Sequence record: NC_047885.1
Source: Escherichia phage chee24
Strand: one strand, 5' to 3'
Length of the DNA: 64,000 nt
In this document: positions 2,943 to 38,520 of the stretch, piece after piece
How the letters are laid out: every line of letters starts with the position of its first letter
How positions within the stretch are numbered: the first letter of the stretch is position 1
Notes under the pieces: generated by a model
Database searches by the model: none
Told to the model about the DNA's origin: nothing
The model's input: the letters and a program-made list of their open reading frames with translations, nothing else
Program-made: the position numbers and the translations under genes

Positions 2943-3181
2943 TTAACACGCTCCGGTAAATCTTCGAGTTTATATTGGGTAGCCACATTAGCAGCATCTA
3001 GTAACAAACCCATATGTTTAAGAATCCTGGTGATAGCCTCGCCTTCTGCTTCTTCTACAAAGCAACGTAGATTAACGAAGTCAATACCACCATCCATACC
3101 AGAGAAAATGTTTAGTAAGCGAAACATTACCAGCTTACGTTCTTTCAATTCTTGTTCTGTCATGTTGCTTCTCCAGTTCAA
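2939..3181 (-). CDS. hypothetical protein (80 aa)
   Basis: ORF start overlaps the stop of the upstream ORF (coupled pair). Confidence 0.5.
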   Translation of the reverse strand: MNWRSNMTEQELKERKLVMFRLLNIFSGMDGGIDFVNLRCFVEEAEGEAITRILKHMGLLLDAANVATQYKLEDLPERVK

Positions 3182-3213
3182 TTTATGTAATTATTATATA
3201 GAACTTTTGGAAA

Positions 3214-3501
3214 CTAAGCAACTACATTTTTTAGGAATTTGATCCCTTTCTTTTTCTTCTTATATTTCCACGTTAATGGATTCTGTCGATTATGAACGCT
3301 TGAGATCTTTGTCTCGTCAAAGTTCTTCAATATCATGTAATCACAGGATAATTGTTCTAGTGGAATGTGATCACCGTCAAAAGCGTATACATAAGGCTGT
3401 TGACTAGCACGATAATGATAGACTTTGTTAATTCTACGTTTCAGCGACTTATCCGCGCAGTAAATAAAGAAGTTTTCAGGATGCATCAGCATCTCCTTCA
3501 A
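3214..3501 (-). CDS. hypothetical protein (95 aa)
   Basis: ORF in the minus-strand series. Confidence 0.5.
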   Translation of the reverse strand: MKEMLMHPENFFIYCADKSLKRRINKVYHYRASQQPYVYAFDGDHIPLEQLSCDYMILKNFDETKISSVHNRQNPLTWKYKKKKKGIKFLKNVVA

Positions 3502-3503
3502 TT

Positions 3504-3578
3504 TGGTGCACCCTGTTCGTATCGAACGAACCTCTCAAGCTCTTCAGGCAAGCGCTAATCCATCTCAGCTAAAGGTGC
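3504..3578 (-). tRNA. tRNA, probably Phe (anticodon GAA), CCA encoded
   Basis: Acceptor GCACCTT/AGGGTGC, D-arm GCTG..TAGC, perfect T-arm GTTCG-TTCGATA-CGAAC; anticodon stem has two U-U mismatches. Confidence 0.5.
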
Positions 3579-3584
3579 AAATTT

Positions 3585-3665
3585 TGGCAAACCCACTAGG
3601 ACTCGAACCTAGACCGTACGGTTTTGGAGACCGACATGCTGTCCAGTAACACTCTAGGAATGCAG
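3585..3665 (-). ncRNA. tRNA-like element with Trp-like anticodon loop (CTCCAAA) but no acceptor-stem pairing
   Basis: T-arm CTAGG-TTCGAGT-CCTAG and 3' CCA present; no complementary 5' strand found within tRNA distance. Confidence 0.3.
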
Positions 3666-3669
3666 AAAT

Positions 3670-3763
3670 TGGTACACCCACGGAGAATTGAACTCCGATT
3701 CTCAGATTGAACTCCGATTCTCAGATTGAAATCCTGATGTCCTAGCCATTAGACGATAGGTGT
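3670..3763 (-). tRNA. tRNA-Glu-like gene (anticodon UUC) with a 19-bp tandem duplication at the variable-loop position
   Basis: Removing one repeat copy gives a 75-nt cloverleaf (acceptor ACACCTA/TGGGTGT, D-arm GTCT-AATGGCTA-GGAC, anticodon stem TCAGG/TCTGA, T-arm CGGAG-TTCAATT-CTCCG); as encoded it is 94 nt. Confidence 0.45.
3687..3730. repeat. perfect 19-bp tandem duplication (ATTGAACTCCGATTCTCAG x2) plus a 6-bp partial third copy
   Basis: Exact copies at 3687-3705 and 3706-3724. Confidence 0.85.
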
Positions 3764-3771
3764 ATTAAATT

Positions 3772-3859
3772 TGGTGGGCGTTAATGGAGTCGAACCACTC
3801 GAGTCGCAATGACCAGGGATTTACAATCCCCTCCGCTACCACTTACGGAATAAACGCCC
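3772..3859 (-). tRNA. tRNA-Tyr (anticodon GUA), long variable arm, CCA encoded
   Basis: Acceptor GGGCGTT/AACGCCC, anticodon stem GGGGA/TCCCT with loop TTGTAAA, 88-nt length with extra arm. Confidence 0.6.
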
Positions 3860-3987
3860 ATATTTAGAAGCATTCAAATACTTGTTTAAACACTTTTAAA
3901 TATGTTTCCGAATTAGATAACTATTATACCAAGTTTTAAGGCACTGAGCAAGTCAAATTTTAAAGAACTTGCTCAGTGCTGTATTAG

Positions 3988-30863: not shown

Positions 30864-30871
30864 AAATTTAT

Positions 30872-30900
30872 TTGCTTTCAGGAAAATTTTTCTGTATAAT
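30872..30900 (+). promoter_or_regulatory. strong early promoter matching the classic T5 P_N25 sequence from memory
   Basis: AAAAATTTATTTGCTTTCAGGAAAATTTTTCTGTATAATAGATTCATAAATTTGAGAGAGGAG; -35 30872-30877, -10 30895-30900. Confidence 0.85.
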
Positions 30901-31880: not shown

Positions 31881-31897
31881 CTACTTAAAAATTTCAG

Positions 31898-31926
31898 TTG
31901 CTTAATCCTATAATTCTTGATATAAT
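31898..31926 (+). promoter_or_regulatory. sigma70-like early promoter (TTGCTT-17-TATAAT)
   Basis: -35 31898-31903, -10 31921-31926. Confidence 0.6.
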
Positions 31927-33086: not shown

Positions 33087-33104
33087 TTCTTGGCTTTTTC
33101 TTTA
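33071..33104 (+). terminator. rho-independent terminator overlapping the stop of 32778-33086
   Basis: Stem AGCCAAGAA/TTCTTGGCT followed by TTTTTCTTT. Confidence 0.6.
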
Positions 33105-33113
33105 TAAATGTAT

Positions 33114-33142
33114 TTGCTTTCAACTCAGTTTTGTTATATAAT
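33114..33142 (+). promoter_or_regulatory. sigma70-like early promoter (TTGCTT-17-TATAAT)
   Basis: -35 33114-33119, -10 33137-33142. Confidence 0.6.
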
Positions 33143-33171
33143 ATTTATATAAATTAATGAGAGGATCAATC

Positions 33172-33372
33172 ATGGCAATGACAATAACACTTCCCAAGAT
33201 TCAAGCAAAACTTAATCTACTTTCCACAGCACGCATTAATTATCAAGATAGCATAGGCACAGTAAATCAAAAGGTGTACAAAGATGCGTTCCTGAAAGAA
33301 TCTGCTGATTTGATGGATATGGTTACACAATATAATAAAGAACTCAAGATGGAAATCGCCGATGATGAATAA
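33172..33372 (+). CDS. small hypothetical protein (66 aa)
   Basis: ATG behind GAGAGGA; track start 33157 lies in the leader. Confidence 0.4.
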   Translation: MAMTITLPKIQAKLNLLSTARINYQDSIGTVNQKVYKDAFLKESADLMDMVTQYNKELKMEIADDE

Positions 33373-34336
33373 TGTAAAAGGCTTTATTAAGCGTTGTCAA
33401 GAAGCATATTATCAGGGTATGTCTTTAATCTCTGATGAGGAGTATGATTGCCTGGTAAAACGCTTCCCGTTAGAAGAAGAGATCGGGCCTAAGGGTGATA
33501 TTCCACATCTGTATCGTATGTATTCTTTACAGAAAGTTTATTATAATCGTGGAGATAAACCCCCGTTTAACCCGTTAGGTCAAGTAGAAACTGATAAGTT
33601 AGATGGTTGTGCAATTTCTCTGCTATATATTAATGGCGAATTTGTTCAAGCACTAACTCGTGGTAACGGTATTCTGGGAAATGATGTCACAAGCAACGTA
33701 AGATTGCTGAACATCCCTAAAAAGATTTCCCAAAAAGTACCTACTCAAATCACTGGTGAAGTTCTAATTACAAAAGAAGTAGAAAATAAACGTAATTTTG
33801 CCTCTGGCGCTATTAACCTCAAAGATAGTGATGATTTCGTACAACGCATTGGAGAAGGCGGTTTAATCTTTGTTGCTTACGGTATCCAATGTTCTGCTGA
33901 ATCTGTAGGTATTACAGAAGCATATTTAAAAGATATGCTTTGGCTAGAGAATGAGAACTTCTTAACAGTTGTTAATGTGCGTTCCTTTTTTAAATGGATT
34001 CCGACGGACGGTAAAGTTGTTCGTATTAATGACAACAACAAATTCTTCCGTGAAGGCTGGACTAATAAATTCCCTCGTGGAGCATTCGCCATTAAAGAGG
34101 ATGAAGAAGGCGAGATTACAACTCTTACTAAAGTTGAATGGCAGGTAGGGGCTTCTGGTAAAGTAACTCCAGTCGGTTATTTTGAACCAGTAATTATTGA
34201 TGATGCTACAATTGTTAAAGCGACTCTTAATAACGTTGATTATATTAACTCTCTTGATCTAGAGATCGGTTGCCAGATTCGAGTGATTCGTGCTGGTGGT
34301 GTAATCCCGTGCATAGTAGAGCGAGTATACGATTAA
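33362..34336 (+). CDS. NAD-dependent DNA ligase, N-terminal part (adenylation domain with KxDG)
   Basis: Active-site KLDG motif; ORF ends before any zinc-finger/HhH/BRCT region. Confidence 0.75.
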   Translation: MMNNVKGFIKRCQEAYYQGMSLISDEEYDCLVKRFPLEEEIGPKGDIPHLYRMYSLQKVYYNRGDKPPFNPLGQVETDKLDGCAISLLYINGEFVQALTRGNGILGNDVTSNVRLLNIPKKISQKVPTQITGEVLITKEVENKRNFASGAINLKDSDDFVQRIGEGGLIFVAYGIQCSAESVGITEAYLKDMLWLENENFLTVVNVRSFFKWIPTDGKVVRINDNNKFFREGWTNKFPRGAFAIKEDEEGEITTLTKVEWQVGASGKVTPVGYFEPVIIDDATIVKATLNNVDYINSLDLEIGCQIRVIRAGGVIPCIVERVYD

Positions 34337-34479
34337 TACATAACCCTTTGCTACCCATCTACCATATCGGAATTATAAAGTGGTTATTGACATTTCCGCC
34401 GCTTAGGTATATACTATTATCATTCAGTTGAGGGATAGAAAGTTATGGCGAGGGTAAGCAAAGTTAGTTAAAATTGTAG

Positions 34480-34508
34480 TTGCTAAATGCTTAAATACTT
34501 GCTATAAT
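34480..34508 (+). promoter_or_regulatory. sigma70-like promoter (TTGCTA-17-TATAAT) between the two ligase ORFs
   Basis: -35 34480-34485, -10 34503-34508. Confidence 0.6.
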
Positions 34509-34538
34509 ATTTATATAAATTGATAAGGAAGAAATTTG

Positions 34539-35318
34539 ATGAAAATCGAAATTCCAACACAATGTCCCTCTTGTGGTTCTAAGCTAGATCTTGTCAACGG
34601 ACAATTATTCTGTCGTAATAAGTCCAACTGTCCAGCGCAATCAAGTAAGTTAATTGAGAACTTCTGTACAAAAATGAAGTTAAAGGGCTTTGGCCCAAAA
34701 ACTATTGAGAAGCTGGAGCTGACGAAGATTTCAGAACTATTTTACCTAACCGAAGAAGATTTGGTTAGAGCCGTGGGTAGCAAGGTTGCCGCTAAGTTAA
34801 TTAGCGAATTAAATAATAAAGTTCGCGGAGACATTGACTTTGGTTCAGTTCTCGGTTCTTTAGGAATCCCTCTAATCGGAGAGGTTGCAGCAAAGAAATT
34901 GTCCCAAAATTGCACCAGTTTTCAAGATGTGAGAGCTGATGGCAGAGCTGGAGAAAATTATAAAGCCTGGCTAAATTCCCCACAAGGCAAGGATGTTATC
35001 GAATTACCGTGGAAATTCACAACTGGTATTAAAGGTGCTAAAGCTGAGGTCATCATCACTGATGGTCTAGTAGCCCAACCAAACGGAATAACGGTATGTA
35101 TTACCGGATCTTTGCAAGATTTTGCAAATAGAACGGATGCAACAAACTATTTAGAAGGTCTAGGATATACGGTTAAGAAATCCGTTACCAAAGACGTCAA
35201 ATACCTAATCTGTGAGGATGAATCGAAGCGTTCTTCCTCATCTTATAAGAAAGCCGAAACGAATGGGATAGAAATCCTGTCGATTAAAGAACTATTGGAG
35301 AAAAATAATAATGTCTAA
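34539..35318 (+). CDS. NAD-dependent DNA ligase, C-terminal part (zinc finger, HhH, BRCT-like)
   Basis: CPSCGS...CRNKSNCPAQ zinc-finger motif; ATG at 34539 behind AAGGAAGAAA. Confidence 0.7.
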   Translation: MKIEIPTQCPSCGSKLDLVNGQLFCRNKSNCPAQSSKLIENFCTKMKLKGFGPKTIEKLELTKISELFYLTEEDLVRAVGSKVAAKLISELNNKVRGDIDFGSVLGSLGIPLIGEVAAKKLSQNCTSFQDVRADGRAGENYKAWLNSPQGKDVIELPWKFTTGIKGAKAEVIITDGLVAQPNGITVCITGSLQDFANRTDATNYLEGLGYTVKKSVTKDVKYLICEDESKRSSSSYKKAETNGIEILSIKELLEKNNNV

Positions 35319-36078
35319 ACTGAACTGGAACGTAGAAGGTGTAACCGAGTCTCTGAAAGCAAAAGCCACTGCTCTGGGTGTTGCTGTAATCTCTCAAGAA
35401 CAAGTAGCTGCTATCGCTGCTGAACTGGCTGCTGAAACTGGCAAAGACGTTACCGCTCGCTCTGTTGGCTCTAAGCTGCGTAAAGAAGGTTTCGAAGTAC
35501 AGAAAGCTAACGAAGTACAGAAATCCCCATGGACTCCTGAGCAGGAAGCTGAACTGGTTGATTTCCTGAACGCTCATGCTGGTCAGTATACTTATGCTGA
35601 AATCGCTGCTGCTGTAGCTGGTGGTCAGTTCGGTGCTAAGCAGGTACAGGGTAAAATCTTGAGTCTGGAAATGACCGCATCTGTTAAGCCGACCGAAAAA
35701 GCTGCTGCTGTTCGTTCCTTCACTCCGGATGAAGAAACTGACTTTGTTAATCAGGTTGTTGCTGGAGCTACTATTGAAGCTATCGCTGCTCACTTCGGTC
35801 GTAATATCAAGCAGATCCGTGGTAAAGCTCTGAGTCTGCTTCGTGAAGGTCGTATCGCTGCTATGCCGGTACAGGAAACTTCAAGTGCTAAAACTCGTGA
35901 AGATCTGTTAGAAGGTCTGGATCTGGCTAACATGACTGTTGCTGAGATCGCTGAGAAAACTGGTAAGTCTGAGCGCGGTGTTAAATCTATGCTGTCTCGT
36001 CGTGGTCTGGTTGCTAAGGACTATGATGGTGCCGCTAAGCGTGCTAAACTGGATGCAAAAGCTGCGGCTGCTGAATAA
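35311..36078 (+). CDS. abundant-type protein with three internal HTH-like repeats (255 aa), putative DNA-binding
   Basis: Three repeats (TYAEIAAA...GKILSL, IEAIAAHFG...GKALSLL, TVAEIAEKTG...KSML); codon choice looks strongly host-optimal. Confidence 0.55.
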   Translation: MSKLNWNVEGVTESLKAKATALGVAVISQEQVAAIAAELAAETGKDVTARSVGSKLRKEGFEVQKANEVQKSPWTPEQEAELVDFLNAHAGQYTYAEIAAAVAGGQFGAKQVQGKILSLEMTASVKPTEKAAAVRSFTPDEETDFVNQVVAGATIEAIAAHFGRNIKQIRGKALSLLREGRIAAMPVQETSSAKTREDLLEGLDLANMTVAEIAEKTGKSERGVKSMLSRRGLVAKDYDGAAKRAKLDAKAAAAE

Positions 36079-36095: not shown

Positions 36096-36130
36096 AAGGG
36101 GAGGGGGCTATGCTCCTTCCCCTTTTTGCA
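36096..36130 (+). terminator. rho-independent terminator after 35311-36078
   Basis: Stem AAGGGGAGG/CCTTCCCCTT followed by TTTTG. Confidence 0.6.
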
Positions 36131-36160
36131 TTTAGAAGGCACGAAAGCGTGCAAAGGAGA

Positions 36161-37633
36161 ATGACCTTGTTTAACGTGCAAGCTGTAGTGTTGAAGATGC
36201 TTCTAGCTTCCGAACAGAAGCAAATAGCATTGGAAACATTCTCAAAACTGCATAAAGATCATTTTAATGACGCTTTCTCCTCAATTTACCAAGCCGTCCA
36301 GAATTATTATAAAAAATATAACACAATGCCGTCCATTGACGCACTGATGCTTGAGGCTAATAGGAACGCCCGCCTTTCTCAAGCTCTAGTCGTTTTAGCT
36401 AACACTCAAATTCCAGAAGTTAGCATGGAACAGGCACTTGAAGTCCTAGAAGCCGAGTATACACAGGATTTATTCCTGAAGCTTCTAGAAACAGACGTGC
36501 TTCAAGATTTAACAATGCTGGATCAGGGAGAAATTCTTAACCGAGTTGCCTCCCTTCACTTAAAATTAGAAGAGAAAGTAACGAATACTGGAAAAGTATT
36601 CAACGCAGATAACATGCGTATTTTCCAGAGAGAAGAAGATACCAAACTGAACTTAATCGCTCTTGGTATTTGTAATGAGTTCGACGCTCAAATTGGTTTA
36701 GCTCGCACAGAAACGTTACTGCTTGGTGGTTGGCGTGGTACTGGTAAATCCATTATCTGTTCAAACATACAGGTTCAGCAATATTTGAATGGAGATATTG
36801 CTCCATACTTCTCAATTGAGATGAAAGAACATGAAGTATTTAGACGTAATCTAGCTATGTTAGCTGGTGTATCAGCACTAGCAATGCGTAATAATACTCT
36901 AGAAGGTGCAGCTCTGTTGAGATTAGCCAGAACTAGAGCTAGGATGTTTAACGGTGGTGAAGAGCTTTTCGATAACTTCGTTAAACAGTACACAATGGCT
37001 AAGATGAGTGATTTCTACGATATGGAAAGTAAGCTAATAGAAGGGTATGAATTACATACTCCTATGATTATTGTTTATGATCCTGAGCTGTCTATTACAA
37101 CAGTTGACGTAGAATTAAATAAATTAGTTGCTAGATATGGGGATAAAGTTACAGTAGCTTTACTGGACTATATTAACCAAACCCGACTTCCAGATTCTAA
37201 AACCATTGATATGTATGACTGGAAAGAACAGATGGTTGTTAGCTCGTCTTTCAAATCTATCTGCCAGAAACATAACGTGGCTGGTGTAGCTCCTTACCAG
37301 ATTGATCAAGATGGTAGAACACGTATGTCAAAGGGGATTCTTGATTCCGCAGACATGGCTGCTAATCTTAATGCTGCAAAAGCGGATAATGGTCAAGGTG
37401 CTATTATGTTTGACTTCGTTAAGACTCGTTCTTCTGATAGCGTGAAGTTTATGCCTAAAATGAACTGGGAAACCCTGCGGATGGATAACACTACCAACCT
37501 AGCAATGGAAGATATATCTCAAATGGAAGCTGAGTTCGTTATCCCTATTGAGAAGGATAAGCCGGCTCAATCTAAACGTGCTAAGAAAGACAAAGCTGAA
37601 AATTCAACAGGTGAACAGGCCAGCGATATATGA
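36161..37633 (+). CDS. DnaB-family replicative helicase-like protein
   Basis: Walker A GWRGTGKS and SIEM (DnaB SLEM-like) motif; start moved to the ATG behind AAAGGAGA, past the terminator. Confidence 0.65.
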   Translation: MTLFNVQAVVLKMLLASEQKQIALETFSKLHKDHFNDAFSSIYQAVQNYYKKYNTMPSIDALMLEANRNARLSQALVVLANTQIPEVSMEQALEVLEAEYTQDLFLKLLETDVLQDLTMLDQGEILNRVASLHLKLEEKVTNTGKVFNADNMRIFQREEDTKLNLIALGICNEFDAQIGLARTETLLLGGWRGTGKSIICSNIQVQQYLNGDIAPYFSIEMKEHEVFRRNLAMLAGVSALAMRNNTLEGAALLRLARTRARMFNGGEELFDNFVKQYTMAKMSDFYDMESKLIEGYELHTPMIIVYDPELSITTVDVELNKLVARYGDKVTVALLDYINQTRLPDSKTIDMYDWKEQMVVSSSFKSICQKHNVAGVAPYQIDQDGRTRMSKGILDSADMAANLNAAKADNGQGAIMFDFVKTRSSDSVKFMPKMNWETLRMDNTTNLAMEDISQMEAEFVIPIEKDKPAQSKRAKKDKAENSTGEQASDI

Positions 37634-38520
37634 GTAGAATAACAGAACTACTTGATCTGAAAGGCATTGAATATAAAGACACAGGTGGGGACATCCTCAT
37701 CTGTTGTCTCAATCCAGATCATGATGATAAACACCCAAGTTTGCGTATTGACCCTGAAACAGGTATTATGCACTGCTTGAGTTGTGGCTTCGGTAAAGGT
37801 ATACCGAGCATTTACCATTATTTTAATGAGACTCAGTACCGACAGTCCCCAAGGCTATCGCAAGTACGTAAAAAGATTTCAGAGATTAGGAATGGATCAA
37901 CGAATCTTGCAATTCCTGAATCTGCTTGCCTTTTCGAAGGTGATTTCCGAGGTATAAGTTCTAAGACCTTGAAGAAATATTTTGCTTTCCAACACCAAGC
38001 AGACTGGGAAGGCAGAATTGTATTCCCAATCACAGATGCTGTTGGACGCAATATCCTATTTTTGGGTCGTTCTATAAACAGTTCTGCCCCTCCTAAATAC
38101 TTAGTAAAACCAAAACAAGTTTCACCACCAATTTTTCCTGTACGATATAATACTCCAGTTCTTATTCTAGTTGAAGGCATCTTTGATATGCTGAACCTAG
38201 AGGATAATGGTATAGACTATACTTCTTGCTGCTTTGGTACACATCAGTTTACTTCGGATAACATTGCAGATAAGTTCAGTCCTTATATTATTGCCGGTGT
38301 AAAAGTTGTTGTTATCTTACTAGATAATGATGCTTCTGGTAGTAAAGCTGCACAAGCATTGGCCAAGCTAATTCGTACAAAAACGCGTTTAACACCTGTA
38401 GTTGCTAACTTTCTTCTGCCTGAAGGTAAAGACCCTGGTGACTTAAATAAAGAAGAGATTGATATGTTAGCAAAACGTATTGAAATTTTAGTTGCTGAAT
38501 CGCTTAAAGATTTGGTATAA
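37630..38520 (+). CDS. DNA primase (zinc-binding domain plus TOPRIM)
   Basis: CLNPDHDDKHPS...HCLSCG zinc motif; TOPRIM LVEGIFDML...LLDNDASG; ATGA coupling. Confidence 0.75.
   Translation: MSRITELLDLKGIEYKDTGGDILICCLNPDHDDKHPSLRIDPETGIMHCLSCGFGKGIPSIYHYFNETQYRQSPRLSQVRKKISEIRNGSTNLAIPESACLFEGDFRGISSKTLKKYFAFQHQADWEGRIVFPITDAVGRNILFLGRSINSSAPPKYLVKPKQVSPPIFPVRYNTPVLILVEGIFDMLNLEDNGIDYTSCCFGTHQFTSDNIADKFSPYIIAGVKVVVILLDNDASGSKAAQALAKLIRTKTRLTPVVANFLLPEGKDPGDLNKEEIDMLAKRIEILVAESLKDLV

What the first reader, a model, noticed from the sequence alone, without database searches (positions are those of the whole stretch)
33362..35318. NAD-dependent DNA ligase encoded as two separate ORFs with a promoter between them
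The adenylation domain (KLDG) ends at 34336. The zinc-finger/HhH/BRCT-like half starts at 34539 with its own RBS, and a full promoter (34480-34508) lies in the roughly 200-bp gap. Either the ligase works as two subunits, or an insertion split an ancestral gene and the C-terminal half gained its own promoter.
Basis: partly seen in the sequence, partly recalled or inferred. Interest (0 to 1): 0.55.

Follow-up and report, generated by a model that had tools for sequence, protein, structure and literature searches.

The report
Phage T5 two-subunit DNA ligase
This is the split NAD-dependent DNA ligase of a T5-like phage, made as two separate proteins (LigA and LigB) with two early promoters between the genes; the feature is real but has been described and annotated since 2005.

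Summary
The window is a T5-like phage, 100% identical to Bacteriophage T5-like pork27. ORF 33365-34336 carries domain Ia, the adenylation domain and the OB fold of LigA. ORF 34539-35318 carries the zinc finger, HhH and BRCT domains. Together they tile a full-length LigA, and the break falls in the OB/zinc-finger linker (E. coli LigA residues ~393-400). The 202-nt gap has stop codons in all three frames, so no frameshift correction can join the ORFs.

The gap holds two promoters, not one: 34387-34415 and 34480-34508. The T5 reference record annotates them as promoters P-K28b and P-K28a.

The split occurs in every Demerecviridae genus sampled. Both genes are under strong purifying selection. The gap is more conserved than synonymous sites in ligA.

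[quoted passage not shown] PDB entries 9HU3 and 9I5I hold both chains of the homologous ligase from a Providencia T5-like phage.

Verdict: a real, ancient, functional two-subunit ligase that is already known. Interest is low.

The parts
33114..33142 (+). Early promoter upstream of orf71-ligA: TTGCTT-17-TATAAT, followed by the ATATTTATATAAATT box that it shares with P-K28a
   Evidence: Read from the sequence. It corresponds to the unnamed promoter directly upstream of ligA in T5 AY543070 and to 'T5P35' in AY587007. The consensus scan did not list it because its -35 hexamer matches only 3 of 6.
33172..33372 (+). Small ORF (66 aa as annotated; 71 aa from the ATG at 33157) whose end overlaps the ligA start (ATGATGAATAA). 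T5 itself lacks it.
   Evidence: It is annotated as a hypothetical protein (P27_0113). It is also present in oldekolle, Shivani and Epseptimaviruses.
33365..34336 (+). ligA, the ligase catalytic subunit: shortened domain Ia, nucleotidyltransferase domain (KxDG lysine K78, aligned to E. coli K115) and OB fold. It ends at about E. coli LigA residue 393.
   Evidence: Pfam PF01653 and PF03120. phrog_3359 with E 2e-175, and positions 10-381 of the 656-position full-length family phrog_3869. PDB alignments. Multiple alignment A1. dN/dS 0.01-0.05.
34337..34538 (.). 202-nt intergenic gap with no ligase-coding remnant and stop codons in all three frames
   Evidence: From position ~37 onward it is 97-99.5% identical across the sampled Tequintavirus and Epseptimavirus phages with a gap of the same ~202-206 nt; S132, which carries a 156-bp insertion at the 5' end of the gap, scores 88.6%. 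No Rfam match.
34387..34415 (+). Promoter P-K28b (TTGACA-17-TATACT)
   Evidence: 11 of 12 consensus matches. Annotated 'promoter P-K 28b' at the homologous site of T5 AY543070 and 'T5P36' in AY587007. Both hexamers are kept in Klebsiella phage IME260.
34480..34508 (+). Promoter P-K28a (TTGCTA-17-TATAAT, with an extended -10 TG).
   Evidence: Annotated 'promoter P-K 28a' in AY543070 and 'T5P37' in AY587007. Invariant in T5-like phages; the -10 hexamer and the downstream box are kept in Sugarlandvirus.
34526..34532 (+). Shine-Dalgarno sequence AAGGAAG for ligB
   Evidence: Sequence. An RBS is annotated at the same place in Shivani and Stitch.
34539..35318 (+). ligB, the DNA-binding subunit: Cys4 zinc finger (C9, C12, C25, C31, aligned to E. 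coli C408, C411, C426, C432), a shortened HhH domain and BRCT. It starts at about E. coli LigA residue 400.
   Evidence: Pfam BRCT and HhH. phrog_3498 with E 4e-136, and positions 388-654 of the 656-position phrog_3869. PDB 9hu3_B, 1dgs and 2owo alignments. Alignment A1. dN/dS 0.08-0.23.
35311..36078 (+). D5 (DNA-binding protein). It overlaps the ligB stop by 8 nt and sits immediately downstream of ligB with no promoter-like site between them, so the P-K28a/b promoters are presumably its promoters too.
   Evidence: T5 annotation T5.118.

Best explanation
This is the naturally split, two-subunit NAD+-dependent DNA ligase of T5-like phages (family Demerecviridae).

LigA (323 aa) carries the NMN-binding Ia module, the adenylyltransferase domain with the KxDG lysine, and the OB fold. 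LigB (259 aa) carries the zinc finger, HhH and BRCT modules, which in single-chain LigA clamp the nicked duplex.

The two products associate non-covalently and rebuild the LigA domain set. They then seal nicks by the standard three steps: enzyme adenylation from NAD+, AMP transfer to the 5' phosphate, and phosphodiester formation.

The split lies exactly in the OB/zinc-finger linker. It arose once, before the genera of the family diverged.

The gap is a transcription-unit boundary. ligA is read from an upstream early promoter. ligB and the following D5 gene are presumably also read from the tandem early promoters P-K28b and P-K28a.

Shown here: domain content, break point, conservation, selection, and the existence of a deposited two-chain structure for an orthologue. 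Inferred: complex formation and activity for this particular phage, and in vivo use of the promoters.
For: - **Identity of the window.** It is 100% identical to Bacteriophage T5-like pork27. More than 500 T5-like genomes share the layout.
- **Domains.**
- **Tiling.** LigA covers positions 10-381 and LigB positions 388-654 of the 656-position full-length phage LigA family phrog_3869. LigA residue 320 aligns to E. coli 390, and LigB residue 3 to E. coli 402.
- **Key residues.** K78 aligns to E. coli K115, and the four zinc cysteines align.
- **No possible read-through.** Stop codons in all frames of the gap.
- **Solved orthologue.** PDB 9HU3/9I5I contain chain A 'DNA ligase (NAD+)' (E 3e-103) and chain B 'DNA ligase subunit B' (E 1e-79). 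Chain B is 100% identical to Providencia phage PSTCR5/PR1.
- **Purifying selection.** dN/dS is 0.01-0.05 for ligA and 0.08-0.23 for ligB.
- **Split across genera.** It is kept in Sugarlandvirus, Priunavirus, Novosibvirus and Vibrio T5-like phages, with gaps of 192 to 1135 bp.
- **Stand-alone homologues.** The 120 best LigB homologues in 5.8 billion protein clusters, down to 50% identity, are all short stand-alone proteins with no ligase adenylation or OB domain: 118 are 247-263 aa and two are truncated (190 and 214 aa).
- **Promoters.** Annotated as P-K28b and P-K28a in T5 AY543070. The gap is 97-99.5% identical where ligA dS is 0.66-0.76.
- **Prior description.** Subunit A/B annotation, NAR 2013 PMC3632103, and BMC Mol Biol 2006 PMC1684257, which cites Wang et al. 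[quoted passage not shown]
Against: - I found no biochemical assay of T5 LigA plus LigB in the searchable literature, and no paper that cites 9HU3. Complex formation therefore rests on a PDB deposition for an orthologue, with LigB about 53% identical (LigA identity was not computed).
- Promoter use in this phage rests on annotation and conservation, not on transcript mapping done here. The consensus scan alone is not above chance.
- A C-terminally truncated LigN can still self-adenylate, so LigA may have partial activity on its own.
Confidence: 0.9

Rival explanations
1. Assembly or sequencing artefact, or a decaying pseudogene. On this reading one ligase gene was broken by an error or a recent mutation, and one or both halves are non-functional.
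For: None found.
Against: - The gap is 202 nt with 5-7 stop codons in each frame and holds no ligase-like coding remnant.
- The same architecture occurs in more than 500 independent genomes and in at least five genera.
- dN/dS is 0.01-0.23 in both halves.
- The orthologous proteins were expressed and their structure solved as two chains.
Confidence: 0.01
2. The two products do not form one enzyme. LigA acts alone as a minimal ligase or adenylyltransferase. LigB is an independent DNA-binding or scaffold protein, for example a BRCT-mediated recruiter in the replisome, expressed with D5 from its own promoters.
For: - A LigN fragment truncated after the OB fold still self-adenylates (PMC1684257).
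- ligB has its own tandem promoters and sits immediately upstream of the DNA-binding protein gene D5, overlapping it by 8 nt.
- dS differs between ligA and ligB, which suggests partly separate evolutionary histories.
Against: - Chains A and B of the orthologue were deposited together in two PDB entries.
- ligA and ligB are adjacent and in the same order in every genus examined, despite variable intervening DNA.
- From my own knowledge, not tested here: in single-chain LigA the zinc-finger and HhH modules are needed for nick sealing.
Confidence: 0.07
3. The halves are joined after transcription or translation into a single polypeptide, by translational bypassing, programmed frameshifting, RNA splicing or a split intein.
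For: - T4 gene 60 sets a precedent for bypassing in phage DNA-metabolism genes (own knowledge).
- The P-K28b-to-ligB leader folds better than shuffled controls (z = -3.2).
Against: - A 202-nt gap with many stop codons.
- ligB has its own Shine-Dalgarno sequence and ATG.
- The gap ranges from 192 to 1135 bp and holds unrelated ORFs in other genera.
- No intein or intron signature: Pfam found none and Rfam gave no match.
- The PDB orthologue is two chains that start and end at the ORF limits.
Confidence: 0.01

Closest known systems
Bacteriophage T5 ligA/ligB (T5.116/T5.117; AAS77162/AAS77163; 'dnlj1/dnlj2' in AY587007)
   Same: Orthologous genes. ligA is 95% and ligB 97% identical in nucleotides, and the 202-nt gap is 99.5% identical. 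The order D3 ... ligA - P-K28b - P-K28a - ligB - D5 - D6 is the same.
   Different: This phage has an extra small ORF between the upstream promoter and ligA. It also lacks the HNH endonuclease gene hegJ between D6 and the primase gene. Nothing differs in the ligase itself.
Two-chain NAD+ ligase of Providencia phage PSTCR5 / vB_PreS_PR1 (PDB 9HU3, 9I5I)
   Same: The same split at the same point. Chain A (339 aa) aligns end to end with LigA (E 3e-103) and chain B (248 aa) with LigB (E 1e-79). The genes are adjacent with a 192-bp gap.
   Different: A different genus (Priunavirus). LigB is about 53% identical. There are small indels in the nucleotidyltransferase domain and ahead of the BRCT domain.
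Single-chain bacterial LigA (E. coli b2411, PDB 2OWO; T. filiformis 1DGS) and single-chain phage LigA (phrog_3869, e.g. Vibrio jumbo phage vB_pir03, 645 aa)
   Same: The same domain order: Ia, NTase, OB, Zn, HhH, BRCT. The KxDG lysine, the Ia motif SDxEYDxL and the Cys4 zinc finger are all conserved.
   Different: One polypeptide versus two. The T5-type proteins are more compact: about 18 residues are missing after domain Ia, there are two ~17-residue deletions in the NTase domain and a ~12-residue deletion in HhH. Identity to E. coli LigA is roughly 24-33%.

Membership tests
NAD+-dependent DNA ligase (LigA family) | Nucleotidyltransferase domain with the motif I lysine (KxDG) | tested here: met
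   PF01653, E 2e-23. 'DKLDG' K78 (323-aa numbering) aligns to E. coli K115 in 2OWO and 4GLX.
NAD+-dependent DNA ligase (LigA family) | N-terminal domain Ia (the NMN-binding module that separates NAD+ ligases from ATP ligases) | tested here: met
   In alignment A1 the motif 'ISDEEYDCL' aligns to E. coli 'IPDAEYDRL' (D32, Y35, D36 match D24, Y27, D28). A YY pair lies one residue off E. coli Y22/H23. The match to phrog_3869 starts at profile position 10. The module is shortened, and the pairwise HMM score for this stretch alone is not significant.
NAD+-dependent DNA ligase (LigA family) | OB-fold domain after the NTase domain | tested here: met
   PF03120, E 4e-22, residues 253-322. Aligned to E. 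coli residues 284-390.
NAD+-dependent DNA ligase (LigA family) | Cys4 zinc finger, HhH domain and C-terminal BRCT domain | tested here: met
   All three are present, but on the second polypeptide. C9, C12, C25 and C31 align to E. coli C408, C411, C426 and C432. HhH: PF12826, which falls below the Pfam cut-off (25.2 bits against 27). BRCT: PF00533, E 2e-8.
NAD+-dependent DNA ligase (LigA family) | All domains on a single polypeptide (canonical LigA) | tested here: not met
   Two ORFs separated by 202 nt with stop codons in all frames. This defines the split sub-type rather than excluding the pair from the family.
Demerecviridae split ligase (LigA subunit phrog_3359 plus LigB subunit phrog_3498) | Full-length matches to both subunit families, with adjacent genes in the order ligA then ligB then D5 | tested here: met
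   phrog_3359 E 2e-175 (1-323 of 325) and phrog_3498 E 4e-136 (1-258 of 256). Synteny is shown.
Demerecviridae split ligase | The two products form a complex with NAD+-dependent nick-sealing activity | not testable with these tools
   The only support is that both chains of the PSTCR5/PR1 orthologue sit in the same PDB entries. I found no assay data.
Phage T5 early promoters (P-K28a / P-K28b) | Sigma-70 -35 and -10 hexamers with 17-bp spacing at the site annotated in T5 | tested here: met
   (11 of 12 and 10 of 12 matches). The gap is 99.5% identical to T5, where the homologous sites are annotated P-K 28b and P-K 28a. Transcription was not measured here.

The most novel reading that the evidence does not exclude
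The split may be more than a neutral accident. Placing two strong early promoters ahead of ligB (and D5) could be an adaptive way to uncouple dosage or timing. LigB, the Zn-HhH-BRCT nick-binding module, would then be made in excess of the catalytic LigA. It might have a second, ligase-independent role, such as marking or protecting the site-specific nicks typical of T5 DNA, or recruiting replisome partners through BRCT. The conserved, well-folding leader between P-K28b and ligB (z = -3.2) might add post-transcriptional control.
Probability: 0.08. Interest if true: 0.5.

Novelty: already known. Interest (0 to 1): 0.15.

Why it matters
A naturally bisected LigA shows that the catalytic core (Ia-NTase-OB) and the DNA-clamping module (Zn-HhH-BRCT) can work as separate polypeptides. 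That is useful for ligase engineering and for understanding domain cooperation. However, the T5 genome papers and records already made this point in 2004-2005, hundreds of genome records annotate it, and an orthologue has a deposited structure. This window adds no new information. What remains open is the biochemistry and stoichiometry of the T5 enzyme, and why the split and its promoters are kept.

Tried and rejected
- **Frameshift or sequencing error.** Rejected. The gap has stop codons in all frames and ligB lies in a different frame.
- **Mobile element in the gap.** I looked for a homing endonuclease or similar as the cause of the split. The T5-type gap has no ORF of 30 aa or more.
  - The gap ORFs of Salmonella phage S132, Proteus PM135 and Vibrio phages VF16 and 70E35.6 have no Pfam hit.
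  - Their only PHROG hits are a DprA-like protein and an unknown family. I found no endonuclease and no homology between lineages.
- **The ~270-bp extra DNA in oldekolle, phA11 and ZJUN2.** I first suspected it lay in the gap. It is an extra ORF upstream of ligA.
- **Structured RNA in the gap.** No Rfam match.
- **Promoter identity.** I recalled the gap promoter as T5 'PD/E20'. That was wrong: the T5 record names the two sites P-K28a and P-K28b. Literature searches for the promoter sequence and names found nothing usable.
- **Paper on the 9HU3/9I5I structure or on T5 ligase biochemistry.** None found in the held library.
- **Fused close relatives.** None among the best 120 LigB homologues. The nearest single-chain phage ligases, from jumbo phages, are about 30% identical.
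- **dN/dS for bobsandoy ligA.** Discarded, because an indel put the ungapped codon comparison out of register.

Full report
**What the window is.** The region 33100-35500 is 100% identical to Bacteriophage T5-like pork27 and four sibling isolates. It is 94-98% identical to many Tequintavirus genomes. [quoted passage not shown] Window position 33100 corresponds to pork27 position 65099.

**Checking the observation.**
- The ORF list confirms 33362/33365-34336 (324 or 323 aa) and 34536/34539-35318 (260 or 259 aa) on the + strand.
- In ORF1, Pfam finds the NAD-ligase adenylation domain (E 2e-23) and the NAD-ligase OB domain (E 4e-22). In ORF2 it finds HhH and BRCT.
- ORF1 is therefore more than 'the adenylation domain': it also holds the OB fold and a short domain Ia.
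- The 202-nt gap has 7, 5 and 6 stop codons in its three frames, and ligB is in a different frame from ligA.
- The promoter at 34480-34508 is there: TTGCTA-17-TATAAT with an upstream TG. A second, better match lies at 34387-34415: TTGACA-17-TATACT.
- The region as a whole has no more promoter-like sites than shuffled sequence (6 against 7.0). The consensus matches need independent support, which is given below.

**Where the break lies.**
- Against the 656-position profile of single-chain phage LigA (phrog_3869), LigA covers positions 10-381 and LigB covers 388-654.
- Against E. coli LigA (2OWO), LigA residue 320 aligns to residue 390 and LigB residue 3 to residue 402.
- A multiple alignment with E. 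coli LigA, a 645-aa jumbo-phage LigA and three split pairs shows the same thing.
  - The first product ends a few residues after the OB fold.
  - The second begins a few residues before the first zinc-finger cysteine.
- Nothing is missing except a few linker residues.
- The adenylation lysine aligns (K78 to E. coli K115). So do the domain Ia motif SDEEYD (to E. coli D32, Y35, D36) and the four zinc cysteines (C9, C12, C25, C31 to C408, C411, C426, C432).
- The phage proteins are more compact than the bacterial enzyme, with deletions after domain Ia, within the NTase domain and within the HhH domain.

**Is it functional?**
- Between this phage and Tequintavirus or Epseptimavirus relatives, dN/dS is 0.01-0.05 for ligA and 0.08-0.23 for ligB. 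Both halves are under purifying selection.
- The strongest evidence comes from the PDB. Entries 9HU3 and 9I5I hold a 339-aa 'DNA ligase (NAD(+))' chain and a 248-aa 'DNA ligase subunit B' chain. These match LigA and LigB end to end, with E 3e-103 and 1e-79.
- Chain B is 100% identical to the LigB of Providencia phages PSTCR5 and vB_PreS_PR1, which are Demerecviridae of the genus Priunavirus. Their genes show the same split, with a 192-bp gap.
- An orthologous pair has therefore been produced and solved as two chains. I could not find the associated paper.

**How old and how widespread is the split?**
- It is present in Tequintavirus and Epseptimavirus (gaps of 202-206 bp, or 358 bp in S132).
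- It is present in Sugarlandvirus (199 bp), Priunavirus (192 bp) and Novosibvirus (Proteus PM135, 344 bp with a small ORF).
- It is present in Vibrio T5-like phages: 443 bp with one ORF in 70E35.6, and 1135 bp with three ORFs in VF16.
- The 120 best LigB homologues among 5.8 billion protein clusters, down to 50% identity, are all short stand-alone proteins: 118 are 247-263 aa and two are truncated, at 190 and 214 aa.
- The nearest single-chain phage ligases are about 30% identical and belong to jumbo phages.
- The ORFs found in the gap in other genera are unrelated to one another. None looks like a homing endonuclease, and one in VF16 is DprA-like.
- The split therefore looks like a single ancient event. 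The site just after ligA is a place where small genes come and go. What caused the split is no longer visible.

**The gap as a promoter region.**
- In the T5 reference record AY543070, the homologous sites are annotated 'promoter P-K 28b' and 'promoter P-K 28a'. AY587007 calls them early promoters T5P36 and T5P37.
- The window's gap is 99.5% identical to that of T5.
- From about 10 nt upstream of the P-K28b -35 hexamer to the ligB start codon, the gap is essentially invariant across the sampled phages (S132 differs at two positions just upstream of the hexamer). In these phages, ligA synonymous sites have diverged to dS 0.66-0.76.
- In Sugarlandvirus, where coding identity is 67-69%, both hexamer pairs and the ATATTTATATAAATTGAT box are kept.
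- The scan predicts no terminator after ligA. ligB may therefore be transcribed both by read-through and from its own two promoters. That is an inference.
- A similar promoter, TTGCTT-17-TATAAT followed by the same downstream box, sits at 33114-33142 ahead of a small ORF and ligA.

**Prior knowledge.**
- The T5 records name the genes ligA and ligB, 'subunit A' and 'subunit B'.
[quoted passage not shown] It also shows that a LigN fragment truncated after the OB fold can still self-adenylate (PMC1684257).
- PHROGs holds separate families for the two subunits.

**Verdict.** The finding is correct but already known. The open questions are the biochemistry of the T5 enzyme and whether the promoter-bearing split has a regulatory purpose.

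Noticed in passing
window 33365-34336 versus 34539-35318: Synonymous divergence drops sharply across the gap. Against Shivani, sal2 and S132, ligA has dS 0.66-0.76 but ligB only 0.15-0.30, and the gap itself is 88.6-99.5% identical (97-99.5% without S132, which has an insertion). This suggests a recombination or mosaic boundary at the conserved promoter region, or different histories for the two halves.
   Followed up: partly
window 34421-34545: The transcript leader from P-K28b to the ligB start folds into a long hairpin of -26.1 kcal/mol (z = -3.19; 2 of 200 shuffles fold as well). The hairpin pairs the region around 34442-34452 with the P-K28a -10 region and leaves the ligB RBS free. The region is invariant in T5-like phages, so covariation could not be assessed. 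A by-eye comparison with Sugarlandvirus suggests the outer stem is only partly kept.
   Followed up: partly
window 34436-34462: An 8-codon mini-ORF (MARVSKVS*) lies 9 nt downstream of a GAGGGA Shine-Dalgarno-like sequence, just after P-K28b. It is conserved in Tequintavirus and Epseptimavirus, but its ATG is lost in Klebsiella phage IME260. It is probably not meaningful.
   Followed up: no
L013 (Salmonella phage S132) 2573-2930; L004 (Proteus PM135) 2995-3162; L006 (Vibrio 70E35.6) 2957-3253; L005 (Vibrio VF16) 2969-3948: The spot just downstream of the ligA stop codon collects unrelated small ORFs in different genera. S132 has a 156-bp insertion with a 64-aa ORF. PM135 has a 55-aa ORF. 70E35.6 has a 98-aa ORF. 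VF16 has three ORFs, one a DprA-like protein (phrog_768, E 4e-49). None is a homing endonuclease.
   Followed up: yes
window 33157-33372: A small ORF of 66-71 aa lies between the upstream early promoter and ligA. Its stop overlaps the ligA start (ATGATGAATAA). It is absent from T5 itself, where the promoter abuts ligA, but present in many relatives (VOG7040). Its function is unknown.
   Followed up: partly
window 37630-37633 (junction of the D6 helicase gene 36110-37633 and the primase gene 37630-38520): In T5 an HNH homing endonuclease gene (hegJ, T5.120) sits between the D6 helicase and primase genes. In this window the two genes overlap by 4 nt and no endonuclease gene is present.
   Followed up: no
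window ~30866-30900 and ~31892-31926: These are the classical T5 promoters P-N25 (TTGCTTTCAGGAAAATTTTTCTGTATAAT) and P-N26, upstream of D2 and D3. They match the sites annotated in T5 AY543070. From my own knowledge, P-N25 is the 'T5 promoter' of common expression vectors.
   Followed up: partly
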